Virus record (IMG/VR): IMGVR_UViG_3300034524_000090
Span: 55,805-119,804 of that record
Length of the DNA: 64,000 nucleotides
Direction: 5' to 3' (one strand)
Origin: a virus
Positions within the stretch are counted from its first letter, which is position 1. Each line of letters begins with the position of its first letter. The position numbers were made by a program, and so were the translations under genes. The notes under the pieces were generated by a model. It had not been told where the DNA came from. It did not search any database and saw only the letters and a program-made list of their open reading frames with translations. Shown here piece after piece: positions 2 through 46,037 of the stretch.

Positions 2-637
2 AAAGTTCCTGCTACTAATGAGGTTATGGATCGGGAGGCTGTAAAATATAAAATCGGAAATTATGCCCAGATATGTGCTTCTAATGATAAAGAACGCAAT
101 GAAAATACAATAAAATTAATTAAACAAGGTATTTATGCTAATGGTGCTGTTGTTGTTGCTGTTGTAGTTGCCGAGAATTTTAACAACTATGACAAAAACT
201 ATATTATACCTTTACCTGAAGGTTATTTATTGGGTTTACATGCGGTTGGCCTTGTAGGATGGGATGATAAAAAACAGGCGTTTAGACTGCGTAATAGTTG
301 GGGTAAATGGGGAGATAAAGGTTATGCTTGGTTACCTTATGACTTTGTTACTAAGGGTATGGATATTGACGGATATGGTCATATAATGTGGTATCTTCTA
401 GAAGCTTGGACAGCATTAGATGAAATTGTTATCGATGATGCCAAAGAAATTAAACTTATTCCATATAATACTCGTGCCGTAGTTGATGGAGTTGAATATT
501 ATGTTGATCAACCACCTATTATTGATCCTACTACGAATAGAACACTTGTACCGATACGGTTTGTCAGTAACCATATGGGCCGTATTGTAAGCTGGAATGA
601 AGCTACTAACGAGATTATAATTAAAAAACTTAATTAA
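2..637 (+). CDS. Papain-like (C1) cysteine peptidase with C-terminal copper-amine-oxidase-like stalk domain; 5'-truncated by window edge
   Basis: Catalytic His/Asn motifs GLHAVGLVGWDD and FRLRNSWG..WGDKGYAWLPY; C-terminal PPIID..RTLVPIRFVS; frame open from window start. Confidence 0.8.
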   Translation, partial: KVPATNEVMDREAVKYKIGNYAQICASNDKERNENTIKLIKQGIYANGAVVVAVVVAENFNNYDKNYIIPLPEGYLLGLHAVGLVGWDDKKQAFRLRNSWGKWGDKGYAWLPYDFVTKGMDIDGYGHIMWYLLEAWTALDEIVIDDAKEIKLIPYNTRAVVDGVEYYVDQPPIIDPTTNRTLVPIRFVSNHMGRIVSWNEATNEIIIKKLN

Positions 638-661
638 GATTAAGTTATAGGTATTACTGGT

Positions 662-690
662 GGCGGGTAGGTAATACCTACCCGCCTTTT
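662..690 (+). terminator. Intrinsic terminator
   Basis: GGCGGGTAGGT-aat-ACCTACCCGCC 11-bp stem followed by TTTT. Confidence 0.8.
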
Positions 691-711
691 AAATATAAAG
701 GAGGAGGCTTT

Positions 712-3700
712 ATGGATTCTAACGTCTTAGATCTGCTACAAAGGCGTTATTTTCTAAAAGATGAAAATGGTAATCTTATAGAAAATTCTTGGGAAGAACT
801 TTGCGCTAGAGTTGCCGAAAATATTGCCAGCGCAGAGACTTCTCTTGAAAATAAAGAGCGATATAAAGATTTGTTTTATAAGGCGTTAGTTAATATGGAT
901 ATGCTAGCTTCCAGTCCAGTATTGTTTAATGCCAATACTCCACTACAGCAATTAAGTAGTTGTTTTGTGGGCGAACAACCAATTTTAACTTCTGAAGGGT
1001 TTAAGCTAATTAAAGATATTAAGGTTGGAGATTTAGTTGTTACCCATCAAGGCAGATTACGTTCAGTTTTAAAGACTTCTAAGCGTTATACCGAAGAGAC
1101 ATTATATACAATTTCGGTTGATAAAATGTATAAAGATACTTTAAAGGTTACTGGTGATCATCCTATATTAGGGATAAAAAGAAAAGATCTTATATGTAAG
1201 CGTGCCCGTAATTTAATCTGCACAGGTAAATTAAATAAACGTTGTTTATCTCAACCTAAACAATATAAACATGATTGTGAAAGACTAGGTGAGCAATTAT
1301 TACCATATTGGATTAAAGCGGAAGATTTAGAAGTAGGCGATTATGTTGTTGTTGGTACTATAAAGGAAACCAAAGATATTGATTATATTCGGATTAGTGA
1401 TTTTATACCTTGTGATGTGTATATTAAAGATGGAGACTTTATTAAAGTTGCAGGACGGCCAAATTATGGTAAAGAAATTCCAGATAAAATACAGATTGAT
1501 GAAGATTTTATGTATATTGTTGGCTTATATCTTGGCGATGGTAGTGTAGTTCATAAAGATTATAATGTATCAAGTTGTGTAGGCTTTAGTATTAATTCTA
1601 ATAGGAATGATGTAGTTGATAAAATATGTGATTGTATGTATAGGGTATTTAATCTTAAACCCAATATTCATAATTATCCTGAACAGAATACTATCCAGGT
1701 CAGGTATCATTCCTTAATACTTGGATTATTTTTTGAACAATTATTGGGTTCTTTTTGTGATAAAAAAAGAATTCCTGATTGGATTTTATATTTACCCGAA
1801 TCTAAACTAAAAAGTTTATTGGAAGGAATTATGGATAGCGATGGTTATCATTATAAAAATGATGTTTATATTGTCATGTGTAATCGTGACATTATAGAAA
1901 AGTTGTGGCTTATTTTGTTGCGTTTAGGGATATTGGCTAATATAAAAGAATTACCTATTCCTAAAGGTGGCAACAAGACTCCTTACTTGCTTAATTATAA
2001 AGTAAGTCATAATTCTCAACATATTAAACTTGATGATTATGTACTTTTTAGGGTTAATGATATATCTACAGATATTATATCTGACTATGTTTATAACCTT
2101 GAAGTAGAAGAAGATAACACATATGTTGCCAATGGGATTGTTGTGCATAATTGTTTTATTATAGATATAGATGACAATATGGAAAGTATAGCAGAGGCAT
2201 GGAAAGAAGCGAGTCTAATCTTTAAATCGGGCGGGGGTGTAGGTTTTAACATTAGTTCTTTAAGGCCCAAAGGGGCTTTGGTTAAATCTTCTAATGGCGA
2301 AGCATCAGGCCCTATATCGTTTATGAAGGTATTTAATACTATCGTTGAACAAGTTAAACAGGGTGGTCGTCGAAAAGGTGCAATTAAAGTTGATCTTAAT
2401 GTTGAACATCCTGATATAATTGATTTTATCCATTGTAAAGATAATACTTCTGAACTTAATAATATGAATATATCGGTTTCCATTTCTGATGCTTTTATGG
2501 AAGCTGTTAAAAATAACAAAGATTGGCCTTTAGTGTTTAATAATAAAGTATATAAAGTAGTAAAGGCCCGTGATCTTTGGGATGAAATTATTAAGTCGGC
2601 CTGGGCTACTGGCGAACCTGGATTATCTTTTAGGGATACAATGGATAGGGCTAATCCTAATCCACATTTGGGGCATGTGTGGGCCACAAATCCCTGCAGT
2701 GAGTTTGTTAATATCCCTTATTCAAGTTGTCTAACTGGAGATACTAAAGTATTAACATTAGAAGGTGTTCGAGAAATAAAAGATTTAGTAGGTACAAGTG
2801 GTTTTATTTTAAGTGAAAATAATAAGTTTAATAAGTATCAAAATGTAGTATTTAAAGGCGTAAGGCCAGTTTATGAAATTATATTAGAAGGCAATTTAAA
2901 AATACAGGCAACAAAAGATCATAAATTCTTTACTAATAATGGATGGAAGCCTTTAGAGGAAATTAAAAAGGGAATTAAAATTAAAACTAGATCGGGTTAT
3001 CCGTTAGTTAGTATAGAAGATTATGATGAAGAATATGAGATGTATGGATGGATGCATGGTGACGGGTGGTTTACAGAAAATAGTGTTGGCATTTCTTTTA
3101 ATGGTAAAGATGGAGATTTTGATGTAAAAGAACGGTTGTTGCCGATATTTCGTTCTGTTTTTGAAGCTAATAATATAAAACCATTAAAAGATGATTTATG
3201 TTCTTTTCAACTTCAGATAACCAATAAAAAGGCAATAAAAAAGTGTGAAGAATTGGGATTTGTTAAAGGTCATGCTGATAGTAAAAGGTTGCCAATTAGT
3301 TTTTATACTTGGAATATTAAACAACAAATATCGTTTATAAGAGGTTTGTTTACGGCTGATGGGTATATTGGCAAGGGGAAAAATAGGGGTATTATTTTAT
3401 GTTCTACTAGTCTTGTTTTACTTGAAGAAGTTCAAAAGTTTTTAGCATCTATTGGTATTCAAAGTAGAATTACTACGGCCTCATTTAAAACTTGTAAGAG
3501 GAAAGATCAGCATAAATTGATAATTAATAAAGAATCATCTTATATATTTTATAATGTTATTGGATTTTCTGGTACAGCAAAAAGAAATAAATTTAGTAAT
3601 GAAGTTGTCTCGAAAATATATAAAGACAAAGACTTTTTAGAGGTTATCGATATTAGATATGTTGGCAATAAAAGTGTTTTTGATATTATAGAAGTTGAAC

Positions 3701-5112
3701 AAACTAATAGTTTTTATGCCAATGGTTTATTAGTTCATAACTGTAACTTAGCCTCAATTAATCTTGAAAATATGGTTGAAAATGGTGAACTTAATTGGGA
3801 AAAGGTTGAATATTATACAAGACTAACGGTACGCTTTTTGGATGATATGATTGATGTTAATAAATTACCATTGAAAAAGATTGAAGAAGTTACTAAACTT
3901 ATTCGGCCTATAGGTTTGGGTACTATGGGCTATGCCAATATGTTATATAAGTTAGGCATCCCTTATGGCTCCCAAGAAGCTGAAAATCTAACAAAATTAC
4001 TCTATGAATTTATCTATGAGACAGCTCTAGATGAATCTCAAAAGTTGGCTGAAGAAAGAGGTGTTTATCCTGGTTGGAAAGGCTCAGTATGGGAACAAAA
4101 AGGCATTAAAGTACGTAATGCTAATTTAATGTCGATAGCTCCTAATGGCTCTATTAGTTTTATTGCCCAAACTACAGGTGGTATTGAGCCTGAATTTGCT
4201 TTAGTTTATCAACGAACTACTAACGAAGGGGTTAAATATTTTGTTTGTAATAAGGTCTTTAAGAAGGTATTACAGGAAAATGGTTTGTATTCTGAAGAAC
4301 TTTTAAAAGAAATTTTTGAAGCAGGAGGATCAATACAGGAACTAGATTTGCCTCAACAATTAAAAGATATTTTTGTTGTAGCTCATGATCTTGATCCTTA
4401 TAAACATCTAAAGACATTGGCTGTAGTACAGAGATATGTCGATATGGCTTGTTCGAAAACTATAAATCTACCCTCCTCTGCTACACCTGACGTGGTAGGA
4501 GCTATTTATATGAAAGCCTGGGAATTGGGCATTAAAGGGGTTACTGTATATAGAGATGGTTGTAGACCCAATCAGGTTTTAGCTACTGGTGCAACTACTA
4601 AGGTTGAACAAGAAAAAGGTCAGGATAATAATAGTCGTGGTTACATTATTCCTGCTAAACAAAAAGCCAAAGGAATTAGAACTAAACTTTCTACAGGTTG
4701 CGGTTCTTTGTGGCTTTCTGCTTTTGCTGATGAAGATGGTAATATAATTGAAGTGTTTACAGATATTGGCCGTGGTAATTGTATTAGTAACACACAGGCA
4801 CTTTCCAGAATGATTAGTCTTGCTTTGAGAGGAGGGATTAAATTAGAAGATATTATTGAGCAGTTACAAAGCGCTTGCACCTGTCCAAGTTATGCTGTTG
4901 CCAAAGCTACAGGTAAAGGAGTTTCTCCTGGCAAGTCTTGTCCTTCTGCTATTGCTGTTGCTTTAAAAGAATTACAAAAAGAATTTAAGCCCAATATTGA
5001 AAAAGAAACTAAAGTTGTTGTTAAAACTTTATGTCCTCAATGTGGTAATGAATTAGTGTCACAGAGCGGATGTTGGCAATGTAATAACTGTGGTTATAGT
5101 AAATGTGGTTAA
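712..5112 (+). CDS. nrdJ: Class II (adenosylcobalamin-dependent) ribonucleotide reductase precursor with two inteins; ~731 aa after splicing
   Basis: SPVLFNA..QLSSC, GGGVG, QGGRRKGA, TNPCSE (thiyl Cys), CNLASINL, IAPNGSIS, KGVTVYRDG, C-terminal SCP domain and CPQC..CNNC Zn ribbon; no NrdB in window. Confidence 0.9.
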   Translation: MDSNVLDLLQRRYFLKDENGNLIENSWEELCARVAENIASAETSLENKERYKDLFYKALVNMDMLASSPVLFNANTPLQQLSSCFVGEQPILTSEGFKLIKDIKVGDLVVTHQGRLRSVLKTSKRYTEETLYTISVDKMYKDTLKVTGDHPILGIKRKDLICKRARNLICTGKLNKRCLSQPKQYKHDCERLGEQLLPYWIKAEDLEVGDYVVVGTIKETKDIDYIRISDFIPCDVYIKDGDFIKVAGRPNYGKEIPDKIQIDEDFMYIVGLYLGDGSVVHKDYNVSSCVGFSINSNRNDVVDKICDCMYRVFNLKPNIHNYPEQNTIQVRYHSLILGLFFEQLLGSFCDKKRIPDWILYLPESKLKSLLEGIMDSDGYHYKNDVYIVMCNRDIIEKLWLILLRLGILANIKELPIPKGGNKTPYLLNYKVSHNSQHIKLDDYVLFRVNDISTDIISDYVYNLEVEEDNTYVANGIVVHNCFIIDIDDNMESIAEAWKEASLIFKSGGGVGFNISSLRPKGALVKSSNGEASGPISFMKVFNTIVEQVKQGGRRKGAIKVDLNVEHPDIIDFIHCKDNTSELNNMNISVSISDAFMEAVKNNKDWPLVFNNKVYKVVKARDLWDEIIKSAWATGEPGLSFRDTMDRANPNPHLGHVWATNPCSEFVNIPYSSCLTGDTKVLTLEGVREIKDLVGTSGFILSENNKFNKYQNVVFKGVRPVYEIILEGNLKIQATKDHKFFTNNGWKPLEEIKKGIKIKTRSGYPLVSIEDYDEEYEMYGWMHGDGWFTENSVGISFNGKDGDFDVKERLLPIFRSVFEANNIKPLKDDLCSFQLQITNKKAIKKCEELGFVKGHADSKRLPISFYTWNIKQQISFIRGLFTADGYIGKGKNRGIILCSTSLVLLEEVQKFLASIGIQSRITTASFKTCKRKDQHKLIINKESSYIFYNVIGFSGTAKRNKFSNEVVSKIYKDKDFLEVIDIRYVGNKSVFDIIEVEQTNSFYANGLLVHNCNLASINLENMVENGELNWEKVEYYTRLTVRFLDDMIDVNKLPLKKIEEVTKLIRPIGLGTMGYANMLYKLGIPYGSQEAENLTKLLYEFIYETALDESQKLAEERGVYPGWKGSVWEQKGIKVRNANLMSIAPNGSISFIAQTTGGIEPEFALVYQRTTNEGVKYFVCNKVFKKVLQENGLYSEELLKEIFEAGGSIQELDLPQQLKDIFVVAHDLDPYKHLKTLAVVQRYVDMACSKTINLPSSATPDVVGAIYMKAWELGIKGVTVYRDGCRPNQVLATGATTKVEQEKGQDNNSRGYIIPAKQKAKGIRTKLSTGCGSLWLSAFADEDGNIIEVFTDIGRGNCISNTQALSRMISLALRGGIKLEDIIEQLQSACTCPSYAVAKATGKGVSPGKSCPSAIAVALKELQKEFKPNIEKETKVVVKTLCPQCGNELVSQSGCWQCNNCGYSKCG
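961..2151 (+). mobile_element. Intein 1 in NrdJ (397 aa) with LAGLIDADG homing endonuclease
   Basis: Starts CFVGEQ after QQLSS, block B VTGDHP, LAGLIDADG motifs VGLYLGDGS and LEGIMDSDG, ends YVANGIVVHN followed by Cys. Confidence 0.92.
2728..3741 (+). mobile_element. Intein 2 in NrdJ (338 aa) with LAGLIDADG homing endonuclease
   Basis: Starts CLTGDT after IPYSS, ATKDHKF, YGWMHGDGW and IRGLFTADG, ends FYANGLLVHN followed by CNLASINL. Confidence 0.92.
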
Positions 5113-5696
5113 TTAAAAGTTGGGAGGGATTAGGTTTGAGTATTTTTCAAGAAGGTAGATTAGGCATAGGCGTACAACCTTATCACATTAAATGGGCCAA
5201 GGTTAGACCTAATGCAATAATTCCTTCTAAGCGTCCTGGTGATGCTGGTTTTGATGTTTATGCTTGTATAGATGAGGATATTTGGATAGAGCCTGGGGAA
5301 ACAGTTCTTGTCTCTACAGGAATTGCTTATGAAATTACTCCAGGCTGGCATCTAATTGCTAAAGAAAGAGGAAGTACGGGCAAAATAGGGTTAAAGACTA
5401 GTGCGGGCGTAGTAGATGGGAGTTTTAGGGGAGAGATTTTTGCTTGCCTATATAATGCCAATGAAGAAAAGACTATTATACTAAGTGTTAATGAAGAACA
5501 GACTAAAGCTAAACTTCGTGCTGATGGTTTTACAGTTGATGATTATGATGAATTCTTTATTATCTATCCTATTACAAAAGCAATTCAACAATTAATTCCC
5601 GTATACAGTCCAGATGGCACATGGGAAGAAGTTGACTATGAAAATTTGTCAAAAACTGAACGCGGTGATGGAAAATTAGGTAGTACAGGCAAATAA
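5103..5696 (+). CDS. dut: Trimeric dUTPase (probable start TTG 5136)
   Basis: AGFDV, ERGSTG, GVVDGSFRGEI, IQQLI, RGDGKLGSTG motifs; GGGAGG upstream of TTG at 5136. Confidence 0.9.
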   Translation: MWLIKSWEGLGLSIFQEGRLGIGVQPYHIKWAKVRPNAIIPSKRPGDAGFDVYACIDEDIWIEPGETVLVSTGIAYEITPGWHLIAKERGSTGKIGLKTSAGVVDGSFRGEIFACLYNANEEKTIILSVNEEQTKAKLRADGFTVDDYDEFFIIYPITKAIQQLIPVYSPDGTWEEVDYENLSKTERGDGKLGSTGK

Positions 5697-5699
5697 ATC

Positions 5700-5728
5700 T
5701 TGACAAAATAATCTCTAAGTGCTACTAT
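5700..5728 (+). promoter_or_regulatory. sigmaA-type promoter
   Basis: TTGACA (5700-5705), 17-nt spacer, TGcTACTAT extended -10. Confidence 0.7.
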
Positions 5729-5734
5729 AATAGT

Positions 5735-5807
5735 AGCTAATTACCCTTGTCATTGTTGTATTCCTCCCTCGAGGCCCTGCTGTTCAGGGCAGGGCCTACT
5801 TTCTTTT
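5735..5807 (+). ncRNA. Candidate trans-acting antisense sRNA (anti-RBS)
   Basis: Lies between a sigmaA promoter and an intrinsic terminator; contains CCCTTGTCATTGTTGTATTCCTCCCT, matching 45758-45779 at 21/22 nt (antisense to a minus-strand RBS and ATG). Confidence 0.65.
5772..5807 (+). terminator. Intrinsic terminator closing the candidate sRNA
   Basis: AGGCCCTGC-N8-GCAGGGCCT followed by actttctttt. Confidence 0.75.
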
Positions 5808-5823
5808 AAAATAGGAGGTTAAA

Positions 5824-6624
5824 ATGCAGTTAAATACAGTTTATAATATGGATTGTAGGCAAGGATTTTGGGAATTAGAAAAAGAAAATTTAAAATTTGA
5901 TCTTATTCTGGCTGATCCGCCTTATTTTTTAGACCGCAGTAAGACTATTAAGTTTAAAAATCGTAAAGATATAAACTCTCCTATTGAGTGGGATACTTTT
6001 ACAAGTGAGGATGAATATTTAAAGTGGACTGCCGATTGGCTAAATGAAGCTATTAATCTTCTTTCTCCTACTGGTCAATTAATTTGTTACTGTCGTGCTG
6101 AGTATATAAGCGATATAATTTCAATGATAAAGCAAAAAATAAACCACAAATGTACTATGTACTATGTAAAAACTAATCCTCCCCCTTCGGTGCGTAAACG
6201 TAATTACGTGTCAACGGTGGAGACTCTTCTTTGGTTCGTTAAAAATTCAACAAAATATACGTTTAATTTTCAACGACAACAAGATATGCGTAATGCTTTT
6301 ATATTACCAATCCCAGGAGGCAAAGTAAGAAAGCAATATCCTCACCCTACCATGAAACCTTTACAACTTAGTGAGCATCTTATTAAAGTCCATACTAATG
6401 AAAATGATAATATTTTAATTCCGTTTGCTGGTGTTGGTACTGAATGTGTGGCCGCAAAAAGACTAAATAGGAATTTTGTAGGTTTTGAGATTGACCCTTA
6501 TTATTATGAATTATGCCTTAAACGGCTTGGTATTAATAATATTGGTATCAATAATAATACGATAGAAAGGGCTGATACCAATGAACGACAAAAAAATCCA
6601 ACTAGGGAGGCATCTGTTGGTTGA
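5824..6624 (+). CDS. Orphan beta-class N6-adenine/N4-cytosine DNA methyltransferase
   Basis: N-terminal ADPPY, HPTMKP, C-terminal PFAGVGT and GFEIDP. Confidence 0.88.
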   Translation: MQLNTVYNMDCRQGFWELEKENLKFDLILADPPYFLDRSKTIKFKNRKDINSPIEWDTFTSEDEYLKWTADWLNEAINLLSPTGQLICYCRAEYISDIISMIKQKINHKCTMYYVKTNPPPSVRKRNYVSTVETLLWFVKNSTKYTFNFQRQQDMRNAFILPIPGGKVRKQYPHPTMKPLQLSEHLIKVHTNENDNILIPFAGVGTECVAAKRLNRNFVGFEIDPYYYELCLKRLGINNIGINNNTIERADTNERQKNPTREASVG

Positions 6625-6952
6625 GGTAGTTTTAAAAGAAGAAAATGCTGATATTCTTGACAACATTAATCAAATTAAAAAGGAATTAATTGAAGCTGTA
6701 AGTTATACGGGCGCAACAATTAAAGATGTTAGTTTTGTAAGATTTGAGCCTCAAGGAGTTAGTGGCGTAATTGTGATTTCTGAATCTCATTTTTCTGTTC
6801 ATACTTGGCCTGAATACAATACAGCCGTATTTGACTTTTTTACCTGTGGTAATTGTAATCCTTGGAAAGCCATATCGTATTTAGTTGAATCATTGGAGGT
6901 GAAAGATTTGGTTGTCCATGAAGTGCCGAGGTATATGCCAATAGCTGTTTGA
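6581..6952 (+). CDS. speD: S-adenosylmethionine decarboxylase proenzyme (class 1B)
   Basis: LGRHLL, FEPQGVSGVIVISESHFSVHTWPE (E-S pyruvoyl cleavage), DFFTCG. Confidence 0.9.
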   Translation: MNDKKIQLGRHLLVEVVLKEENADILDNINQIKKELIEAVSYTGATIKDVSFVRFEPQGVSGVIVISESHFSVHTWPEYNTAVFDFFTCGNCNPWKAISYLVESLEVKDLVVHEVPRYMPIAV

Positions 6953-6986
6953 CTGAAACAAAGTAAGGAGAGGATGGGATGGGGGC

Positions 6987-8147
6987 ATGTATGTTCCTTT
7001 ACACGTCCATACCGAGTATTCGACATTAGACGGCATAGTTAAAGTACCAGATTATGTCAATAAAGTTAAAGAGTATGGATTGGAAGCTTGTGCTGTAACC
7101 GATCATGGTAATCTTGGTAGTGTTGTTAAATTTTATACTGAGTGCCGCAAAAATAATATTAAGCCTATTATTGGCTTAGAAGCTTATATTGTAGATGATG
7201 TCAATGTTAAAGAACGTGATATGGCTCATATTGTCCTTTTAGCTAAGGACAAAGAAGGTTATTTAAATCTATTAAAGCTTAATAACTTATCTTTTCAGTA
7301 TTTCTATTATAAACCACGCTTGGATTATAAGATTTTAAAAGAATACAGTAGTGGCCTTGTATGTATGTCAGCTTGTATGGCTGGACATATTCCTTCTGCC
7401 CTTCTACAAGGCGAGCATGATCGGGCCAGATATTATATTAACTTACTTTTGGAGATTTTTAAGGATGATTTTTACCTGGAAATCCAGGACAACAATCTAG
7501 AAGATCAGTTCCTTGTTAATTCTCTTTTAGCCTCTTTGGGCAAAGAAAAAGGTGTACCTTTAGTGGCTACCAGTGATATACATTATCTTAATCCTGAAGA
7601 ACAGGAAGCACATTTGGCGATTTTAGCCATACAGACGAAAAAAACCTTACAACAAATTCTTGATGGCAAAGATTTTTCAGGATTTGTTAATTCAGCCGAT
7701 TTCTGTTTAAAGCCTTATGAGGTATTTAAAAATAACCTACAACAGTATCCAGAGGCTATAGCTGCCACTACCGTTATAGCTGATAAATGTAATCTTACTA
7801 TAGATGAGTTAGAAAATCCTAAGCCACTTTTTCCTGTTATTCAGTTGCCCAATAATATCACACCTGAAGAATACTTAACTAGATTAGTTAAATCATCTTT
7901 ATTACAACTAGATTTGCCGATAGACGATTACCAGAAATATTTTGATCGACTTCAGTATGAGTTGGAGGTTATTAATAAGCAAGGATTTGCTCCTTATTTT
8001 TTGGTATTGAAGGATATAATTGATTTTTGTAGACGTGAAGGGATAAGGGTCGGACACGGCAGGGGTTCGGCCAGCGGTAGTTTAGTGAGTTATTTATTAG
8101 GGATTACAAGAGTAGATCCGATTAGGCACGGTCTGTTATTTGAGCGT
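6987..8147 (+). CDS. dnaE: DNA polymerase III alpha subunit, exon 1 (PHP domain and start of polymerase domain)
   Basis: LHVHTEYSTLDG, TDHGN, GRGSASGSLVSYLLGIT, DPIRHGLLFER; ends at CGT (8147) where the conserved FER|FLNP motif breaks. Confidence 0.9.
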
Positions 8148-9176
8148 AGTGTAGGTTGCGCTCGTTAAATCCCGTGAATTCGGTAAAAGCCCAAACCGTC
8201 AAGGTCGGTGGGTAATACCGAGCCAAGCCTGTCGAATGGTCGAACCAAGTAGACAGGAAGGTGTAGAGACTAGAGAGTGAGGATGACCTACCAATAAACT
8301 CTCCACGAGAGCGGGACATAAAAGCGTTGGTATTATTGGAGGGACAGTATTGCCCATAATTAAATGTCAGTATTGCGGAAGGGAAGTATATAAAGATCGA
8401 CAACAAAAATTTTGTTCAAAAGAGTGTGCTGTTAAATTTAAACGAGAAACTACTCAAGAGATTGATTTTTTAACTAGCCCTAAAGTAGATACGGAATTAA
8501 AATATTATCTTATAGGTTTAATTTGGGGAGATGGTTGTTTAGTACAACAAAAAAATAAATCGCCCCATATTGTATTGGCCTTAAAAGATAAAGAACTACT
8601 TGAACAGATACGTTTATTATTATGTCCTCATCGTAAATTATATATTAATAAAAAACGAAAACCCCATCATTCTAATTCATATGTACTTGTTATTAGAAAC
8701 TATTTTACGATAAAAGGCTTACAAGAATTGGGTCTAACACATCAAAAATCTAAAAATATTAGTTTTCCTAAAATAGAAGAACCTTTTATTATAGATTTTA
8801 TACGTGGATATTTTGATGCTAATGGGGCAATTTATTATGATGTTAGAGAAGAGGGTTATATATACAAATATGTCAAAATAACAACAGGAAGCAGAGATTT
8901 TGCTTTAGGGTTAAAAGAGGTTTTAAAAAAATTAGGTTTTAATCCTGTTTTTTTTAAAGATAAAAGACATATGGCATACTATATACAATTAAGCCGCAAA
9001 CAGGAAGTAGAGCAATTTGGCAATTTAATTTATTCTAATAAACAATGGTACTTAAAACGAAAATACCAACGCTTTTATGAAGATATAGTCCAAACTGGGC
9101 TGGAAATGACCAGCCGATGAAAATGAGGGAAACCTCCAGAGCGCAGGATAAAGAGCCTGCGGATAATAACAATTTG
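8148..9176 (+). mobile_element. Group I self-splicing intron in dnaE (1029 nt)
   Basis: Removal restores LLFER-FLNPDRVSMPDID in frame; 5' exon ends in U pairing in P1 (GAGCGU with GCGCUC); P7 elements AGAGACTA (~8265) and GAAGATATAGTCC (~9079); intron ends in G (9176). Confidence 0.9.
8350..9120 (+). CDS. Intron-encoded LAGLIDADG homing endonuclease with N-terminal Zn finger
   Basis: CQYC..FCSKEC, IGLIWGDG and IRGYFDANG motifs; GGAGG RBS before TTG. Confidence 0.85.
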   Translation: MPIIKCQYCGREVYKDRQQKFCSKECAVKFKRETTQEIDFLTSPKVDTELKYYLIGLIWGDGCLVQQKNKSPHIVLALKDKELLEQIRLLLCPHRKLYINKKRKPHHSNSYVLVIRNYFTIKGLQELGLTHQKSKNISFPKIEEPFIIDFIRGYFDANGAIYYDVREEGYIYKYVKITTGSRDFALGLKEVLKKLGFNPVFFKDKRHMAYYIQLSRKQEVEQFGNLIYSNKQWYLKRKYQRFYEDIVQTGLEMTSR

Positions 9177-11195
9177 TTCCTTAATCCAGACCGTGTTTCC
9201 ATGCCCGATATAGATGTAGACATCGAAGAAACTCGCCGTGGTGAGGTAATACAATATTTATACGACAAATACGGCACTGATAAAGTATGTCACATAGGCA
9301 CTTACGGCACTTTAAGCCTAAAAGCAGTTATTAAAGACGTAGCTAGGGCTTTAGATATTAGTTTTGAAATCGTTAATAATATAACCAAAAATATTCCTGA
9401 TGAAATAGAAAGTATAACAGATATAGAACAAAGTGATCTTATAATTCAGATTGATAACCTTTTAGGTGAAGAAAAGCGTAAACAACTTTTAAGCATTGCC
9501 AAAATCTTATATGATTTAAAACGTCATCCAAGTATTCATGCAGCTGGTGTGGTTCTATCTCCTATTCCACTTGATCAGATTGTGCCTGTACGGATTCAGG
9601 ATGGAGATATTGTTACTCAATGGGAAATGGAAGATATTGAACATATAGGGCTAATTAAGTTTGACTTACTTGGCTTGCGAACTCTTAGCGTTGTAGAAGA
9701 ATGTGTTAAAATGTGTAACATTGATCTTGACCAAATATCTTTTGAAGATGAAAAGGCGTGGGAACTAATTAGAAATGGTAGCACAATAGGATGTTTTCAG
9801 TTTGAGTCGCCTGGGATTAGAAAATTATTGAGGGATATGCAGGCTTCTACGTTTGAGGATTTAGTGGCAATTAATGCTTTATATCGCCCAGGGCCGCTTA
9901 ACGCTAAAGATGAACAAGGCAAAACTATGGTAGAGCATTATGTAGATAGAAAATTAGGTTTTGAACCTGTAGAGTATGATCATCCTTTGTTGGAATCAAT
10001 ATTAAAAAATACGTTCGGCATTATAGTTTACCAGGAACAACTGATGGAAATAGCCAAGGTTTTAGCAGGTTATACAATGTCAGAGGCAGATGAACTCCGC
10101 AAAGGCGTGGCAAAGAAAAAAACCGATATTGTTGTTCATCATCATCAAAAGTTTGTGGAAGGGTGTGTAAAAAATGGTATTAAACAAGACGTAGCTGAAA
10201 ATATTTGGGGGCAGATAGAAACGTTCGCCGAATACGGCTTTAACCGCTCGCACAGTTGTTCGTATTCTTATCTCTCTTATTTTACTGCTTACTTGAAAGC
10301 CAACTATCCTTTACAGTATATGACTTGTGTGCTTAATTCGATTATAGATAAGCAGGATAAGATAGCCTATTATCTGCAAGAATGTTTACGTATGGGATTA
10401 AAAATTTTACCGCCTGATATAAATAAGAGCTATTTTAACTTTAGTTTGGAAGGTGATGCTATTCGTTACGGCTTAGGCGCAATCAAAAAGGTTTCATCGC
10501 AGTTTGTAGACGTATTAGTTAAAGAACGCCAGAAAGACCCTATTAGATCTCTGAAGGATTTAATTATAAGAATTAATCGTTCTGTAATGCGTAAAGATCT
10601 CTTAATCAACCTTATTTTGGCAGGAACTTTAGATAGTATAGAGCCTTATACCAATAAATCTGCTCTATGCCAAACTGTAGAGGATATATATAAGTACTTA
10701 ACAAAATCACAACAAAAATTAAAAAAAGGCAAGATAACTGAAGAACAAATTAAGACATATATAGAAGACTATTCTTTACCTGATAATTTAAAACTATATT
10801 CTAAACAAGAATTAGAGGCTTATGAGAAAGATATTTTGGGTTTTCCTTTGACTAAATATCTAATGTCAACAGAAAAACTTAGAAAAACACAGTCAAAATG
10901 CACTAATTTGATTGCTGATGTTCCTGCTTTGAAAAACGGTAAACAACTTATAGTAACTGGTATTGTAGAAGGTTTAAAAAATTATCCAGTCAAAACTGGT
11001 AAATACAAAAACAAGCCTCTATATACTTTTTTCTTAAATGACTTGGATAGTAGTGTTAAATGTATAGTTTATCCTTCACAAAATATAAAAGTTAATTTCA
11101 AAGAGGGTGATTTAATTGCTGTAAAAGCTCAAAAAACAACAGAAGAAAATGGCAGGCCATTATTGATCATTAAACAATATCGTAAAATTTCTTAG
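9177..11195 (+). CDS. dnaE: DNA polymerase III alpha subunit, exon 2 (spliced product ~1059 aa)
   Basis: FLNPDRVSMPDIDVD, HAAGVV, IKFDLLGLRTL, FQFES, ALYRPGP, VYQEQ, YGFNRSH, C-terminal OB-like region. Confidence 0.92.
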   Translation, partial: FLNPDRVSMPDIDVDIEETRRGEVIQYLYDKYGTDKVCHIGTYGTLSLKAVIKDVARALDISFEIVNNITKNIPDEIESITDIEQSDLIIQIDNLLGEEKRKQLLSIAKILYDLKRHPSIHAAGVVLSPIPLDQIVPVRIQDGDIVTQWEMEDIEHIGLIKFDLLGLRTLSVVEECVKMCNIDLDQISFEDEKAWELIRNGSTIGCFQFESPGIRKLLRDMQASTFEDLVAINALYRPGPLNAKDEQGKTMVEHYVDRKLGFEPVEYDHPLLESILKNTFGIIVYQEQLMEIAKVLAGYTMSEADELRKGVAKKKTDIVVHHHQKFVEGCVKNGIKQDVAENIWGQIETFAEYGFNRSHSCSYSYLSYFTAYLKANYPLQYMTCVLNSIIDKQDKIAYYLQECLRMGLKILPPDINKSYFNFSLEGDAIRYGLGAIKKVSSQFVDVLVKERQKDPIRSLKDLIIRINRSVMRKDLLINLILAGTLDSIEPYTNKSALCQTVEDIYKYLTKSQQKLKKGKITEEQIKTYIEDYSLPDNLKLYSKQELEAYEKDILGFPLTKYLMSTEKLRKTQSKCTNLIADVPALKNGKQLIVTGIVEGLKNYPVKTGKYKNKPLYTFFLNDLDSSVKCIVYPSQNIKVNFKEGDLIAVKAQKTTEENGRPLLIIKQYRKIS

Positions 11196-11205
11196 GGGGG
11201 GTTCG

Positions 11206-12015
11206 ATGTCAGTAATTAAGTTAGGGCTAGATCCTGGTCATGGTGGTAGTGATCTAGGAGCTATAGGCCAGAAAGCTAAAGAAAAGGATGTAGTGCTTAA
11301 AATTGCTTTGAAGGTCAGAGATATTTTATCTCAATATGAAAATGTAGAGATATATATGACCCGTACTACTGATGTTGATGTTTCTCTAGAAGAGAGAGCA
11401 AAATTTGCTAATTCTGTAGGTGCGACAGGTTTTATTTCTATTCACGCTAATGCGGCATCATCGCCTAAAGCTCGTGGTACGGAAGTATGGGTGTGGAAAA
11501 AAGGCTATGAAGCCGAGAAGATGGCTCTTAGTATATTAAGAGCTTTGGCACAGATACCCTATCCTTCTTTGCTTCCAAGATACTGTATAGCAACAGAAGG
11601 AAACCAATTTGAAACTTATCTTTTACAAGATGATGTACTTCAGGCAACAATACCTTTGGCCTATTATGAACTAGATAATAGAGGTGTTAAAGAGGCTAAT
11701 TTCTATGTACTGAAGTATACTACAATGCCTGCTGTTCTGGTAGAAACTGCATTTATTACTAATCCTGAAGAGGAAGATATGTTGATTAATCGTTACGAGG
11801 AATTTGCCCAGGCTATTGCTGACGGTATTGTAAAGTATTATGGTTTAACGCCTAAACCAAAGGAAAAAACCTGGGAGGAAATACAACAGGAAGCTCTTGT
11901 GTGGGCCAAAACTGTAGGTTTATTAAATAGCCCACATGATATAAATGAGTCAATGACGGTAGGATTATGGGCCGTTTTGGAAAAACGCAAAAGAGAGGAT
12001 TTAAAATGGTATTAA
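11206..12015 (+). CDS. N-acetylmuramoyl-L-alanine amidase (Amidase_3)
   Basis: LDPGHGG, EKD, SIHANA, PAVLVETAFITN. Confidence 0.9.
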   Translation: MSVIKLGLDPGHGGSDLGAIGQKAKEKDVVLKIALKVRDILSQYENVEIYMTRTTDVDVSLEERAKFANSVGATGFISIHANAASSPKARGTEVWVWKKGYEAEKMALSILRALAQIPYPSLLPRYCIATEGNQFETYLLQDDVLQATIPLAYYELDNRGVKEANFYVLKYTTMPAVLVETAFITNPEEEDMLINRYEEFAQAIADGIVKYYGLTPKPKEKTWEEIQQEALVWAKTVGLLNSPHDINESMTVGLWAVLEKRKREDLKWY

Positions 12016-12067
12016 AGCCAGAGGGGTTTATCCCCTCTGGTATCTTAAAAGTCATAGGAGGATAATA

Positions 12068-13189
12068 ATGCAGATCGAATATTTGTCTGCTTCCAGACTG
12101 GAGACATATTTGCAATGTCCTAGAAAATACTACTATGTCTATGAAAAAGGCTACGATACCAGCAGTGACAATACTCGTTTCGGTTCTTTAATGCATAGTA
12201 TTTTAGAACATATACTAACAGTTGAGCCTGCGCCAGCAGATCCCCTTGAGTATGCTAAAGAAAAATTTAAAAATAATTGGCCGCAGTACGGCATAATGAC
12301 CGCTGATTATTTTACTACTGGCTATGCTTTATTGGAAAAGTTTTTCTTGGAAAACGATTATCTTGATTGGCGGCAGAGGATTATTGATACTCCCGAAAAA
12401 CAGTTTGAGTTAAAACTAAACGATGAGGCAAAGGTAATTGGTTTTATTGATTTACCAATGCAAAAAGATCCCGAAACGCTATTGATTCTTGATTTCAAAA
12501 CCTCTGTTGTGCCTAAAACCGAAGATGAGGCAAAAGCAGATGTTCAGATGAGTATTTATTATCTTGCTGGCAGGGAGCTTTATCCTCAATATAAAAACAT
12601 TGAGCTTACCCTGTATTATCTTCGTCATGGCCCTGTTACAACTACCAGGCCAGATGATTTTGCTTTAACGTTTAAAGATTATCTGCTGGCAAGATATTAT
12701 CAGATTAAGAACGATACTGAAGCTAGACCTATTCCTTCTGCTCTAGCCTGCGCTTACTGTCCAGGCCGCCATGAATGCGATGCTTTGACCAGTAGCATAC
12801 AAATTCCTTCAACTATAGAAGAAATGGTGGCAACCTATGAAGCCATAAAAGCTCAGATTAATGCTTTAAACAGCCGTAAGGAAGAAATTAGTAAATTAAT
12901 TCAACAACATCTAGATTTTATGGATGTGCATAATCTACAGGTTGAGAATAAACAGGTTAGTTTAGTTACTCCAAGGCAACTAAAGTATGATGTTTACAGT
13001 GTCTATAAGGCTTTGGGTTTAAATGATTTTCTTAAAGTTGTTTCAATCGAAAAAAAGGCACTGGAAAAATTACTTAAAAACGATAATAAACGTTTGGCAA
13101 AAGCACGTGAGGGAGCCAAATACGAATACAGTACACCTTACATTAAAATTAGTAATGTAAAAAACTTTGATGTGGTTAACGACAATTAA
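12068..13189 (+). CDS. PD-(D/E)XK RecB/Cas4-like exonuclease
   Basis: LSASRLETYLQCPRKY, GFIDL, ILDFKT, QMSIY, CAYCPGRHEC Cys cluster. Confidence 0.85.
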   Translation: MQIEYLSASRLETYLQCPRKYYYVYEKGYDTSSDNTRFGSLMHSILEHILTVEPAPADPLEYAKEKFKNNWPQYGIMTADYFTTGYALLEKFFLENDYLDWRQRIIDTPEKQFELKLNDEAKVIGFIDLPMQKDPETLLILDFKTSVVPKTEDEAKADVQMSIYYLAGRELYPQYKNIELTLYYLRHGPVTTTRPDDFALTFKDYLLARYYQIKNDTEARPIPSALACAYCPGRHECDALTSSIQIPSTIEEMVATYEAIKAQINALNSRKEEISKLIQQHLDFMDVHNLQVENKQVSLVTPRQLKYDVYSVYKALGLNDFLKVVSIEKKALEKLLKNDNKRLAKAREGAKYEYSTPYIKISNVKNFDVVNDN

Positions 13190-14343: not shown

Positions 14344-14365
14344 CAGAATATGTGAAAAGATTATC

Positions 14366-14394
14366 AATCCCCTCTTTCGAGGGGATTATTTTTT
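14366..14394 (+). terminator. Intrinsic terminator
   Basis: AATCCCCTC-tttc-GAGGGGATT followed by T-tract. Confidence 0.75.
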
Positions 14395-14470
14395 GTGTAG
14401 GAGGTATAAAATCACTTGTAAATGGATATAAATTATGATAAGATAAAGTTACAAAAACTAAACAATTAAA

Positions 14471-27463: not shown

Positions 27464-28786
27464 TTATGCCTCCAAATATTTTGCAAAATGAAATTTACCA
27501 AAAAGCAATTCCTTTACTAACCTTTGCCATTCCATTTCAAATTCTCTGGTGCTATCAAGAGTTTTTGTGTGTTTATGCAGAGCTTCATGTAATAATGTCA
27601 TTGTTACGTTTTCTACGCTGGTAAAAATTTCTATTGTTAAATAAATCGTATCCTTGATCTTATCATAGAAACCATCAATATTGCCACAATCAATTTTATT
27701 TATATAGCATTGTTGAGTAAGTTTTACAGGCTCTACTGGCCCTACAATTTTCTCTACAATATTTTTAGCAATCCTAAACATTTCTTTTTGTTTTTCATCT
27801 AAACAACTAAATGGTATATCTACCTCATTAAATTTTTGTTCTATTATTTGTTGGCTATAGGGTACTCCTATACGTTCTAAAAATGCTTGAATTGCCCAAG
27901 GTAAATCCAATACCTGAAAACCTAAATATTCAGCAGTATTATCAGCTTTTGTATTATAACTTAAACATTTATTCTGGAATAATTTCATGACAATTGATTT
28001 CCATAGTTCCCGATTTTGGGGCCATATTGATACTCTACTTTCGACATAATCGCTAAATTTATTTCTCATTTCTAGTATTTTTTCTAGAAAATATGTTATT
28101 ACTTTTTTGCTTTGCGTTTCTTCTAAAGCGTTACGCATCATCTTTTCTAATTGTTGCATATCAACTACAGTCCGATCACGATTTTGAGCTTCTTTACCAA
28201 CTCCTTGAAAATTATAAGAGAATAATAAATTAGGCATCTCGGTTGCTAAAACACCATTAATAAAAACTTTTCCTCCAGGCAAACCGATAACAGGATCAAG
28301 TTGTTTTATTTTTTCTTTCCGTAATTCTTTAAAATACTGTTTAGCCTGTTCCACTTCTTCAGGAGTGCATTCAATTTCAAACCTAGTTCCAACTTCTCTA
28401 GAAATCGATCTAATATTAAATGCTAAAACTTCACAACCCAATGCCTTAGAAAAGATTATTTCTGGTCTAATACGATAACCTACAGTATCTATAATCATTT
28501 CCCTGCCTAATCTGGCTATAACCAGCATAGCCAATTTAAGTCCTTCGCCAAATTGTCCAATCAAATTATTATCGTCTCTTTTACTTGATTTGCCCAAAGC
28601 CAAATCTATAGTTGAAATACCAGGGCCATCATCTTCAATAATAAATTTATTTTTACCTCTATGAAAACGAATATTGCAATTGTATTTAGTTTTTGTGTCA
28701 AAGGCTTCTTGTAATATTTCTCGTAAAGCCTCTACTATTCCCCAATGAGGCACATATTCAGTAGAAATTGCAGTTTCAATACGCAT
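27464..28786 (-). CDS. GHKL (HATPase) ATPase with C-terminal HExxH motif
   Basis: EALREILQEAFD, IEDDGPG, GQFGEGLK, GTRF; LLHEALH near C-terminus. Confidence 0.75.
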   Translation of the reverse strand: MRIETAISTEYVPHWGIVEALREILQEAFDTKTKYNCNIRFHRGKNKFIIEDDGPGISTIDLALGKSSKRDDNNLIGQFGEGLKLAMLVIARLGREMIIDTVGYRIRPEIIFSKALGCEVLAFNIRSISREVGTRFEIECTPEEVEQAKQYFKELRKEKIKQLDPVIGLPGGKVFINGVLATEMPNLLFSYNFQGVGKEAQNRDRTVVDMQQLEKMMRNALEETQSKKVITYFLEKILEMRNKFSDYVESRVSIWPQNRELWKSIVMKLFQNKCLSYNTKADNTAEYLGFQVLDLPWAIQAFLERIGVPYSQQIIEQKFNEVDIPFSCLDEKQKEMFRIAKNIVEKIVGPVEPVKLTQQCYINKIDCGNIDGFYDKIKDTIYLTIEIFTSVENVTMTLLHEALHKHTKTLDSTREFEMEWQRLVKELLFGKFHFAKYLEA

Positions 28787-28810
28787 TGTTGTATTTCCCC
28801 TCCTTAATAA

Positions 28811-44085: not shown

Positions 44086-44104
44086 ACTGTATTCCTCCCT
44101 TATT

Positions 44105-45602: not shown

Positions 45603-45767
45603 TTACGCAAGTTTAGCTAAATATAAACTTACTTTTCGTTGAATCTCTTCCATATTACAGTATTTACAATTCCTGAAACAACTATCACAGAATTTTTCCC
45701 AGTTAATTGGCTTATTCATGCGTATTTGCTTTGCTACATACTGAAGGATTCTTTCTTCCCTTGTCAT
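45603..45767 (-). CDS. 54-aa CxxCxxxCxxC protein, first gene of the early array (not in ORF track)
   Basis: AAAGGAG-7 nt-ATG; MTREERILQYVAKQIRMNKPINWEKFCDSCFRNCKYCNMEEIQRKVSLYLAKLA. Confidence 0.7.
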   Translation of the reverse strand: MTREERILQYVAKQIRMNKPINWEKFCDSCFRNCKYCNMEEIQRKVSLYLAKLA

Positions 45768-46037
45768 TGTTGTACTCCTTTCTTTTGGACTTGCGCTTTA
45801 TTCACTTGTCAAAGAACTCGCTTAATATATTCGACGTTTTTTCATACATTCCTTCTTTCCGCATAAAAATTTTTGTTGTTTTTTTATCGCTTGTCAGCTA
45901 TTGATATATCTATGTTTGAAGTCTTTTTTTCAATTGTCTGAAGATAAAAACTTTGAGGCATAAGATGCATAGTTATGCAGTATAATGCTGGGTTTATACA
46001 AGCTACCTTATTATATATATATAAAACATATATAAAT

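What the first reader, a model, noticed from the sequence alone, without database searches (positions are those of the whole stretch)
5700..5807. Trans-encoded phage sRNA antisense to the RBS and start codon of the first early gene 40 kb away
Seen: a sigmaA promoter (TTGACA-17-TGcTACTAT) and a strong terminator bracket only ~70 nt between dut and the MTase. The core 5744-5765 CCCTTGTCATTGTTGTATTCCT matches 45758-45779 CCCTTGTCATTGTTGTACTCCT (17 nt exact, 21/22 overall; the mismatch would be a G-U pair). On the minus strand 45758-45779 is the SD, spacer, ATG and first codons of an unannotated 54-aa CxxCxxxCxxC gene (45603-45767) heading the early array. Inference: a small RNA blocks translation of that gene, acting either as a distant type-I-like antitoxin or as an RNA lysogeny/early-to-late switch. 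I know of no description of this pair.
Basis: partly seen in the sequence, partly recalled or inferred. Interest (0 to 1): 0.88.

Follow-up and report, generated by a model that had tools for sequence, protein, structure and literature searches.

The report
Candidate phage antisense small RNA
A 73-base promoter-to-terminator unit in an uncultured phage carries a 22-base stretch that could pair with the ribosome-binding site and start codon of a small cysteine-rich phage gene 40 kb away; the match is better than chance, but no RNA or comparative data yet show that it is made or acts.

Summary

**Confirmed in the sequence**
- 5744-5765 and 45758-45779 are identical at 21 of 22 bases, 17 of them exact. 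The mismatch would give a U-G pair.
- A TTGACA-17-TG-n-TACTAT promoter (5700-5728) and a 10-bp terminator (5772-5807) bracket about 73 nt between dut and the DNA methyltransferase.
- On the minus strand, the distant copy is the SD, spacer, ATG and codons 2-4 of a real 54-aa Cys4 gene, which has one homologue.

**More than chance?**
- A 17-mer repeat alone is expected by chance in this window. A 21/22 direct match is expected 0.07-0.17 times per window.
- The RNA's 5' tail is the reverse complement of a typical ribosome-binding region. Even against that stricter null the match stands out: 0 of 11,325 real pairs reach 21/22, and 0 of 48 antisense controls reach its pairing energy.
- The flanks share nothing.

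**Still open**
- No RNA run holds the phage.
- A roughly 93-95% identical relative exists in other runs, but its substitutions at the unit could not be read.
- In the closest fetched relative, the same post-dut promoter drives dnaE directly, with no terminator.

**Verdict**
- Best reading (0.38): a promoter-proximal terminated RNA that also acts in trans, as StxS does.
- The type I antitoxin reading is rejected.
- "First early gene" is not shown.

The parts
5700..5728 (+). Sigma-70/sigmaA-type promoter: TTGACA, 17-nt spacer, TG-n-TACTAT. The predicted start of transcription is about 5735-5738.
   Evidence: 10/12, TG yes. It is one of the few intergenic TTGACA-17 sites among 115 promoter-like sites in the record. 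A promoter sits at the same place in relative L015.
5735..5807 (+). Predicted RNA of about 73 nt: a 37-nt unstructured 5' tail followed by a terminator hairpin and a U-rich tail.
   Evidence: Folds (MFE -21.4 kcal/mol, z -2.36; only the terminator pairs). No Rfam family is matched. No transcript data exist.
5744..5765 (+). Antisense core: 22 nt complementary (21 Watson-Crick pairs plus 1 U-G) to the start region of the 54-aa gene mRNA. It contains an anti-SD and an anti-AUG.
   Evidence: Mean unpaired probability is 0.84.
5772..5807 (+). Intrinsic terminator: a 10-bp stem (7 G-C), a 6-nt loop and a T-rich run. It also lies at the end of the RNR-dut operon.
45758..45779 (-). Predicted target site: SD (AGGAG), 7-nt spacer, ATG and codons 2-4 of the 54-aa gene.
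   Evidence: The cofold shows the 22-bp intermolecular helix. Mean unpaired probability in its mRNA context is 0.62.
45603..45767 (-). 54-aa CxxCxxxCxxC protein gene of unknown function. It is a real gene.
   Evidence: One homologue (60 aa, 49% identity, E 4e-6) with the four Cys and the C-terminus conserved. No Pfam or PHROG family. The AF2 model is helix-loop-helix at pLDDT 78 with no PDB match.
44088..44100 (-). Weaker candidate second site: 13 nt identical to the RNA core, covering the SD and spacer of the 190-aa gene 43513-44085.
   Evidence: longest shared run 13. Its ddG of -25.3 is within the range of controls.
28784..28795 (-). Weaker candidate third site: 12 nt identical to the RNA core, covering the ATG and spacer of the 440-aa GHKL-type ATPase gene 27464-28786.
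   Evidence: Pfam HATPase_c_3. It is not among the 12 best by ddG.
5103..5696 (+). dUTPase gene, the upstream neighbour.
5824..6624 (+). N6/N4 DNA methyltransferase gene, the downstream neighbour. It is followed by an AdoMet decarboxylase gene and dnaE.

Best explanation
Host RNA polymerase starts at the consensus promoter directly after dut. Most transcripts stop about 73 nt later at the strong intrinsic terminator. The resulting short RNA has a free 37-nt 5' tail that is the reverse complement of a ribosome-binding region (anti-SD, spacer, anti-AUG). It pairs over 22 contiguous base pairs with the SD, start codon and codons 2-4 of the mRNA of a 54-aa Cys4 protein gene 40 kb away. That gene sits next to the iteron-rich non-coding block. 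Pairing would occlude the 30S binding site and keep that protein low whenever the promoter is active.

The unit probably arose when a terminator and a short copy of the target's start region came to lie behind the ancestral dut-dnaE operon promoter. If so, the RNA is at the same time the terminated leader of the methyltransferase-speD-dnaE operon. This is the arrangement shown experimentally for StxS of Stx phages.

Shown: the sequence match, the consensus signals, the predicted accessibility and the specificity against controls. Inferred: that the RNA is made, is stable, meets the mRNA and represses it. The biological role of the target is unknown.
For: - Match and signals.
- Unique architecture: 1 of 15 strong terminators in the 119.8-kb record has a promoter of 10/12 or better 25-160 nt upstream.
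- Open tail and target: the tail is unpaired at 0.84 and the target at 0.62.
- Specificity against shuffles: ddG is -33.7 kcal/mol for the 54-aa gene start against -27.0 for the next of 151. For 25 shuffled tails the best ddG had mean -21.6 and minimum -28.2.
- Specificity against antisense copies of real gene starts: 48 of the 151 were tested with the same terminator. Best non-self ddG had mean -22.7, sd 3.1, minimum -30.3, and 0 of 48 reach -33.7.
- 0 of 11,325 real start-region pairs reach 21/22.
- The identity is sharply bounded. Both 120-nt flanks align no better than shuffles (score 14 against 15.4 +/- 2.5). This argues against a decaying longer duplication.
- The target is a real gene.
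- The unit is unchanged in a near-identical strain from another study. The X2 contig over 5017-8000 differs only at 6114, 6572 and 7647.
- Precedent for terminated-leader sRNAs acting in trans: StxS (PMC7547250, abstract read).
Against: - No RNA data. No listed holder is an RNA run.
- No co-variation test was possible.
- The finding was made post hoc. Window-wide, a direct 21/22 match turns up in 7-17% of simulated windows, and a 17-mer repeat in 60-80%.
- In relative L015 (dut 74% identical) the promoter at the same place drives dnaE with no terminator, no methyltransferase and no antisense tail. The promoter is therefore not dedicated to an sRNA. Relative L014 has only a terminator-like hairpin there (read by eye).
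- No convincing promoter was found for the target gene, so the timing of co-expression is unknown.
- 22 contiguous pairs is unusually long for a trans-encoded sRNA. It looks more like a copied fragment, which need not be functional.
- The tail pairs fairly well with many gene starts simply because it is an anti-SD/anti-AUG sequence.
Confidence: 0.38

Rival explanations
1. The unit is an operon leader or attenuator only. The promoter is the dnaE-operon promoter. The terminator ends the RNR-dut operon and attenuates, or is antiterminated for, the methyltransferase-speD-dnaE operon. The short RNA is an inert by-product, and the 22-nt identity is a non-functional short copy of a ribosome-binding region.
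For: L015 has the promoter at the same place driving dnaE (PHP and pol3 alpha) with no terminator. L014 has a terminator-like hairpin there (read by eye). No other plus-strand promoter of 10/12 or better lies between 5808 and the plus-strand terminator at 14366, apart from a TTAAAA-17-TATAAT site lying over the methyltransferase start. Lambda-type PR'-tR' units give such by-product RNAs (PMC7547250 abstract; PMC12197685 section 4 mentions 6S).
Against: It leaves unexplained a sharply bounded 21/22 identity that no real start-region pair reaches. The leader shows no alternative antiterminator fold, since only the terminator pairs. This reading and the best explanation are not exclusive, as StxS shows.
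Confidence: 0.3
2. The stretch is a minus-strand relic or micro-ORF. It would be a leftover, or still used, ribosome-binding region on the minus strand (SD, 8-nt spacer, ATG, 12 codons), copied from or sharing ancestry with the start of the 54-aa gene. No plus-strand RNA function would be involved.
For: The minus strand of 5735-5771 reads as a first-rate start region. It resembles many real ones: 13 nt shared with the 190-aa gene start and 12 nt with the GHKL ATPase gene start. The 10-mer CATTGTTGTA occurs 3 times in the record, and the other two copies are at real start codons.
Against: The ORF is only 12 codons. No minus-strand promoter was seen upstream of it, and the only minus-strand promoter-like site in the gap (5753..5724, 10/12) overlaps the micro-ORF start and points away from it. 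The flanks show no trace of the 54-aa gene. The stretch lies exactly in the single-stranded part of a promoter-terminator unit on the other strand.
Confidence: 0.1
3. The identity is a chance similarity between two AT-rich, SD/ATG-constrained sequences.
For: 17-mer repeats are expected in this window. A direct 21/22 match occurred in 2 of 30 and 5 of 30 simulated windows.
Against: 0 of 11,325 start-region pairs reach 21/22. 0 of 48 antisense controls reach the pairing energy. One copy also falls in the only promoter-terminator unit of the record.
Confidence: 0.08
4. The identity is a DNA-level protein-binding site. On this reading, a phage DNA-binding protein recognises the shared sequence, which overlaps the 8-nt iteron-like unit of the array at 46036-46126. 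It would bind both just downstream of the post-dut promoter and at the start of the 54-aa gene.
For: By eye, 11 nt of the core recur twice inside the tandem array, which has period 8 and 10 copies. The end of the array resembles the core at 13 of 17 positions, counted by eye.
Against: The shared 22-mer is not palindromic. The resemblance to the array is short and was not tested against a null. All four sites are equally well described as minus-strand start regions, because a 27-aa ORF starts at 46126.
Confidence: 0.06
5. The pair is a distant type I toxin-antitoxin system, with the 54-aa product as toxin and the RNA as antitoxin.
For: Only the general pattern of a small protein gene whose start is covered by an antisense RNA.
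Against: The protein is hydrophilic, with 17 of 54 residues charged and no hydrophobic segment longer than about 6 residues (sequence). It carries a conserved Cys4 motif. The RNA gene is 40 kb away. There is no PADLOC, Pfam or PHROG support, although PADLOC was not run.
Confidence: 0.02

Closest known systems
StxS of Stx (lambdoid) phages (Sy, Lan and Tree 2020, PMC7547250; abstract read)
   Same: Both are short RNAs (74 nt against about 73 nt predicted) produced because a phage promoter is followed almost at once by an intrinsic terminator upstream of an operon. StxS acts in trans by base pairing, including on a phage-borne mRNA.
   Different: StxS comes from the late promoter under Q antitermination, binds Hfq, is RNase E-processed and is experimentally proven. 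Here no antiterminator, chaperone, processing or transcript is known. The host is probably Gram-positive-like, and the operon is a replication/modification operon.
c4 antisense RNA of phages P1/P7 (Citron and Schuster 1990, seen only as a reference in PMC12197685; role described in passages of PMC8201110)
   Same: A phage-encoded small antisense RNA that controls synthesis of another phage regulatory protein at the RNA level, in a plasmid-prophage.
   Different: From recall, c4 is cut from the same operon transcript that carries its targets. Here the target is 40 kb away on the other strand. The Rfam scans gave no match to any family.
24B_1 and VpdS (review PMC12197685, section 4 read)
   Same: Trans-encoded phage sRNAs reported to act on phage mRNAs (d_ant for 24B_1; phage and host mRNAs for VpdS) and to bias the lysis-lysogeny decision or replication.
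   Different: Both are Hfq-dependent and come from Gram-negative hosts. Their pairing is short or imperfect, or the RNA is processed to microRNA size. Here there are 22 contiguous pairs over the SD and AUG.
sar (P22) and OOP (lambda) antisense RNAs (review PMC12197685, section 4 read)
   Same: Small phage RNAs that pair with the start or coding region of a phage regulatory gene and lower its expression.
   Different: They are cis-encoded, transcribed from the opposite strand of the target itself, so their complementarity is automatic. Here the two loci are separate.
PeSL cassettes (promoter-early stem-loops) of T4-type phages (recalled; no paper fetched)
   Same: A strong sigma-70-like promoter followed by a terminator stem-loop within a few dozen bases, lying between genes.
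   Different: PeSLs are many-copy cassettes that mediate module shuffling. This unit is single-copy in the record.

Membership tests
Trans-encoded base-pairing sRNA that represses translation by occluding the ribosome-binding site | A discrete small transcript with its own start and a Rho-independent terminator | tested here: inconclusive
   Consensus promoter and terminator are present and the fold shows a terminator hairpin plus a free tail. No RNA run holds the phage, so the transcript itself is unobserved.
Trans-encoded base-pairing sRNA that represses translation by occluding the ribosome-binding site | Complementarity to the SD/AUG region of an mRNA from another locus, beyond chance | tested here: met
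   22 bp cover the SD to codon 4. 0 of 25 shuffled tails, 0 of 48 antisense-of-real-start controls and 0 of 11,325 start-region pairs equal it. Window-wide, chance is 0.07-0.17.
Trans-encoded base-pairing sRNA that represses translation by occluding the ribosome-binding site | Seed and target are accessible | tested here: met
   Predicted unpaired probability is 0.84 for the seed and 0.62 for the target. These are predictions only.
Trans-encoded base-pairing sRNA that represses translation by occluding the ribosome-binding site | Conservation or co-variation of the pairing in relatives | tested here: inconclusive
   No relative carrying the unit could be fetched. Contigs of a 93-95% identical relative span the unit without indels, but the substitution list was cut off.
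Trans-encoded base-pairing sRNA that represses translation by occluding the ribosome-binding site | Repression of the target in vivo | not testable with these tools
   This needs a reporter assay with compensatory mutations.
Type I toxin-antitoxin system | A small hydrophobic, membrane-active toxin peptide | tested here: not met
   The 54-aa sequence has 17 charged residues and no hydrophobic stretch long enough to span a membrane. It has a conserved Cys4 motif.
Type I toxin-antitoxin system | The antitoxin RNA is encoded overlapping or next to the toxin gene | tested here: not met
   The two loci are 40,014 nt apart.
Promoter-proximal terminator under antitermination (lambda PR'-tR' type) | Promoter, short leader and strong intrinsic terminator upstream of an operon | tested here: met
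   The downstream operon is methyltransferase-speD-dnaE. The relative L015 has the same promoter without the terminator.
Promoter-proximal terminator under antitermination (lambda PR'-tR' type) | A dedicated antiterminator (Q-like protein or put-like RNA) | not tested
   No search for antiterminator genes was made. The leader shows no second stem-loop.
P1/P7 c4 RNA (Rfam C4 family) | A match to the curated covariance model | tested here: not met
   No Rfam family reaches its gathering score in the window. In the E<=10 scan of 5650-5860 the seven weak rows do not include it.
PeSL regulatory cassettes | Multiple dispersed copies of the promoter-stem-loop cassette | tested here: not met
   Only one unit exists in the record. 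BLAST of 5690-5830 against the record finds only itself and the 22-mer.

The most novel reading that the evidence does not exclude
The RNA is a multi-target 'anti-start-region' regulator of a plasmid-prophage-like phage of an uncultured subsurface host. It would be made from the replication-operon promoter as a terminated leader. It would silence the origin-proximal 54-aa Cys4 protein fully, and partially silence other genes whose starts share its core: the 190-aa gene at 44085, the GHKL ATPase at 28786 and the 27-aa ORF inside the iteron array. This would couple transcription of the replication module to shut-off of a set of early or origin-linked genes without any protein repressor.
Probability: 0.1. 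Interest if true: 0.62.

Novelty: new member of a known kind. Interest (0 to 1): 0.45.

Why it matters
Experimentally supported phage sRNAs that regulate other phage genes in trans are few. In the review I read (PMC12197685, section 4 and table passages), almost all come from Gram-negative, Hfq-using hosts. A 22-bp trans pairing in a large uncultured phage with sigmaA-type promoters would add a Gram-positive-style example of a terminated operon leader that doubles as a regulator. It would also point to the 54-aa Cys4 protein next to the iteron block as a gene the phage needs to keep tightly controlled. If the RNA is not made or does nothing, the case is merely a promoter-proximal terminator with a short copied fragment, which is ordinary.

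Tried and rejected
**Cis model.** I tested whether the tail sequesters the methyltransferase SD in read-through RNA. The SD unpaired probability is 0.38 with the real tail against 0.28 +/- 0.05 with 100 shuffled tails. The real tail is therefore no better than its composition, and this was dropped as a designed function.

**Longer homology around the 22-mer.** None was found.

**Known RNA family.** None was found.

**Nucleotide relatives in the phage collection.** None was found.

**Other searches for relatives:**
- tblastn of dut finds only phages at 43% identity or less, such as Brevibacillus phage Sundance and Tsamsa-like Bacillus phages.
- The 17-mer found in IMG/VR gave 11 unrelated loci.
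- The 22-mer is absent from genome contigs.
- The 54-aa protein has no match in the phage records, the viral contigs or the genome contigs. Its one homologue came only from the representative library.

**Expression.** No RNA holder is listed.

**Reads.** One search showed the X2 contig identical over the unit. It also showed 93-95% identical contigs in X3-X5 spanning the unit without indels. However, 297 substitution rows were not shown, so the state of 5700-5807 in those strains is unknown.

**Extra targets.** The GHKL ATPase and 190-aa gene starts share 12 and 13 nt with the core, but their pairing energies lie within the controls. Only 4.6% of real start regions have 3 or more partners at 12 nt or more, which is suggestive but not decisive.

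**Structure of the 54-aa protein.** The model has pLDDT 78. The Foldseek PDB search gave no match at E<=0.001, and no wider fold search was run.

**Literature.** Searches found no description of a comparable unit in large Gram-positive phages. The phage itself is an unnamed metagenome record, so no paper on it is expected. Supplements were not consulted.

Full report
**What the window is.** The window is the last 64 kb of a 119,804-base IMG/VR virus record. The record is linear, estimated 86% complete, and 33% G+C. Runs that hold it are labelled subsurface metagenome.

The plus-strand block at 26-19573 carries:
- a ribonucleotide reductase with an intein;
- dUTPase;
- an N6/N4 DNA methyltransferase;
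- an AdoMet decarboxylase;
- a split dnaE.

A long minus-strand array of mostly small genes runs from about 62 kb down to 19.6 kb. The nearest cultured relatives by dUTPase are large Bacillus and Brevibacillus siphophages at 43% identity or less.

5744-5765 and 45758-45779 are co-oriented and identical at 21 of 22 positions, with 17 exact. The one difference would be a U-G pair. No further copy with 5 or fewer mismatches exists in the record.

The promoter is TTGACA, a 17-nt spacer and TG-n-TACTAT at 5700-5728. The terminator hairpin at 5772-5797 has 10 pairs, 7 of them G-C, followed by a T-rich run. Both are found by the consensus scan. The RNA would be about 73 nt. Only the terminator folds (MFE -21.4 kcal/mol, z -2.36), which leaves 37 nt free at the 5' end.

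On the minus strand, 45758-45779 is AGGAG, a 7-nt spacer, ATG and codons 2-4 of a 54-aa ORF with CxxCxxxCxxC.

**Is it more than chance?** The answer depends on the null.
- Window-wide, exact 17-mers are expected. Markov-simulated windows hold 1.0-1.5 direct pairs each, and 60-80% of 40 simulations per order hold at least one. The real window has 3 direct and 3 inverted.
- A direct 21/22 match appeared in 2 of 30 (order 1) and 5 of 30 (order 3) simulated windows.

The tail is not random sequence, however. Its reverse complement reads as a first-rate ribosome-binding region (SD, spacer, ATG), and such regions resemble each other. I therefore used start regions as the null, with three results:
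- Among 151 crudely called genes (my own simple caller, 77% of the record covered), the 11,325 pairs of start regions reach at most 20/22 (1 pair), then 19/22 (4 pairs) and 18/22 (30 pairs). None reaches 21/22. The stretch here scores 21/22 with the 54-aa gene and 16/22 with the next best.
- In cofolding, the RNA gains -33.7 kcal/mol with the 54-aa start against -27.0 for the next of 151. For 25 shuffled tails the best gain had mean -21.6 and minimum -28.2.
- I took 48 of the 151 real start regions, turned them into antisense tails on the same terminator, and cofolded them. Their best non-self gain had mean -22.7, sd 3.1 and minimum -30.3. None reaches -33.7, and 1 of 48 has a second-best as good as -27.0.

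The 120-nt flanks on both sides of the 22-mer align no better than shuffles. The identity is therefore real, sharply bounded, and beyond what shared start-region constraints give. It remains a post-hoc find.

**Context that speaks for an RNA gene.** Of 15 strong intrinsic terminators in the whole record, only this one has a promoter of 10/12 or better 25-160 nt upstream. The phage clearly uses sigma-70/sigmaA-type promoters. Several perfect or near-perfect TTGACA-17-TATAAT sites sit in intergenic gaps, and the site at 5700 belongs to that class. The core is predicted to be 0.84 unpaired and the target 0.62 unpaired.

The target is a real gene. An exhaustive HMMER search of 1.84 billion representatives found one homologue of 60 aa (49% identity, E 4e-6) with the four Cys and the C-terminal EIQRK-SLY-KLA conserved. 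Its function is unknown: it has no Pfam or PHROG family, and a helix-loop-helix model at pLDDT 78 has no PDB match.

**Context that speaks against an independent sRNA gene.** The closest relative I could fetch is L015, with dUTPase 74% identical. It has a TTGACA-17-TAAAAT promoter (11/12) nine bases after the dut stop, followed directly by dnaE (PHP and pol3 alpha). It has no terminator, no methyltransferase and no AdoMet decarboxylase. A more distant relative, L014 (55%), has only what I read by eye as a terminator-like hairpin after dut.

The post-dut promoter is therefore ancestral and is an operon promoter. In the window phage, the antisense tail, the terminator and the methyltransferase-speD cassette lie between it and dnaE. 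This makes the unit a promoter-proximal terminator, and the short RNA could be a mere by-product.

The two readings are not exclusive. StxS of Stx phages is exactly such a by-product that acts in trans (PMC7547250, abstract). I tested one cis alternative, that the tail masks the methyltransferase SD in read-through RNA. The real tail does no better than shuffled tails (0.38 against 0.28 +/- 0.05 unpaired).

**Other candidate targets.** I confirm 12-nt and 13-nt identities there. I also confirm that the 10-mer CATTGTTGTA occurs just three times in the record: in the tail and at two start codons.

Only 4.6% of real start regions have 3 or more partners sharing 12 nt or more. However, the pairing energies of these extra sites are within the controls. 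They are possible secondary targets, not evidence.

- The type I antitoxin idea fails two defining features. The protein is hydrophilic (17 of 54 residues charged), and the RNA gene is 40 kb away.
- 'First early gene' is not shown. The gene and a 112-aa coiled-coil-like neighbour form a two-gene unit between two repeat-rich non-coding blocks, ending at a terminator at 45170-45150.
- The block upstream holds an 8-nt-period tandem array at 46036-46126 and AT-rich runs, and may be an origin.
- Minus-strand genes continue beyond that block. The only sigma-70-like site upstream of the gene within the ~890-nt non-coding block is a weak 9/12.

**What could not be done.**
- No listed holder is an RNA run.
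- Laying contigs of four DNA runs on 4000-8000 showed the X2 contig identical across the unit (3 differences in 5017-8000, at 6114, 6572 and 7647). Contigs 93-95% identical in X3-X5 span the unit without indels. This is the most direct missing test.

**Verdict.** The anatomy is that of a terminated leader whose free tail is an antisense copy of the 54-aa gene's start region.
- A functional trans-acting repressor RNA: 0.38.
- An inert leader or terminator by-product carrying a copied fragment: 0.30.
- A minus-strand relic or micro-ORF: 0.10.
- Chance: 0.08.
- A DNA-level binding site: 0.06.
- Type I toxin-antitoxin: 0.02.

If the RNA is real, it is a new member of a known kind: phage sRNAs that regulate phage genes, with StxS, c4, 24B_1 and VpdS as the nearest cases. 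It is not a new kind.

Noticed in passing
window 46036-46126 (within the non-coding block 45768-46661): A tandem array with an 8-nt period and about 10 copies (consensus ATGTATTG), flanked by TATATA-rich runs. On the minus strand it can also be read as a 27-aa ORF starting at 46126, with an SD-like AAGGAAA. It may be an origin or an operator array.
   Followed up: partly
window 20808-20842, 37260-41472, 44640-44827: A co-oriented intergenic motif family (plus-strand core AAACCGATAGA) lies between minus-strand small genes. The repeat finder gives families D1, D2 and D6. Its function is unknown.
   Followed up: no
window 5824-6952 against L015 5502-5576: The methyltransferase and AdoMet decarboxylase pair is absent from the nearest relative, where dnaE follows dut directly. 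It therefore looks like an inserted cassette. In the 93-95% identical strains, 6870-6987 is replaced by 95 other letters (joints table).
   Followed up: partly
window 712-5112: The 1466-aa ribonucleotide reductase carries intein-splicing, LAGLIDADG and Hint domains. In L015 the gene before dut is instead an anaerobic NrdD-type reductase.
   Followed up: no
window 46488-46523 (+): A second TTGACAAAATA... site shares its first 11 nt, and a CTACT at the same spacing, with the promoter at 5700 (21 of 36 by eye). Its -10 box is poor and no terminator follows.
   Followed up: no
window 45823-45846 (-) and 45522-45602 (-): A 7-codon mini-ORF with its own SD lies about 55 nt upstream of the 54-aa gene. 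A G+C-rich hairpin without a T-run lies between the 54-aa gene and the 112-aa gene. Both were read by eye.
   Followed up: no
window 19585-20496 (-): A tyrosine recombinase (Phage_integrase, E 2e-27). Earlier notes report ParM/ParR at 15-17 kb. Together these hint at a temperate or plasmid-prophage lifestyle.
   Followed up: no
window 4923-5252: Runs X3-X5 show strain variation and contig breaks at the 5' end of dut, including a joint from 4989 to 5179 with 146 other letters between.
   Followed up: no
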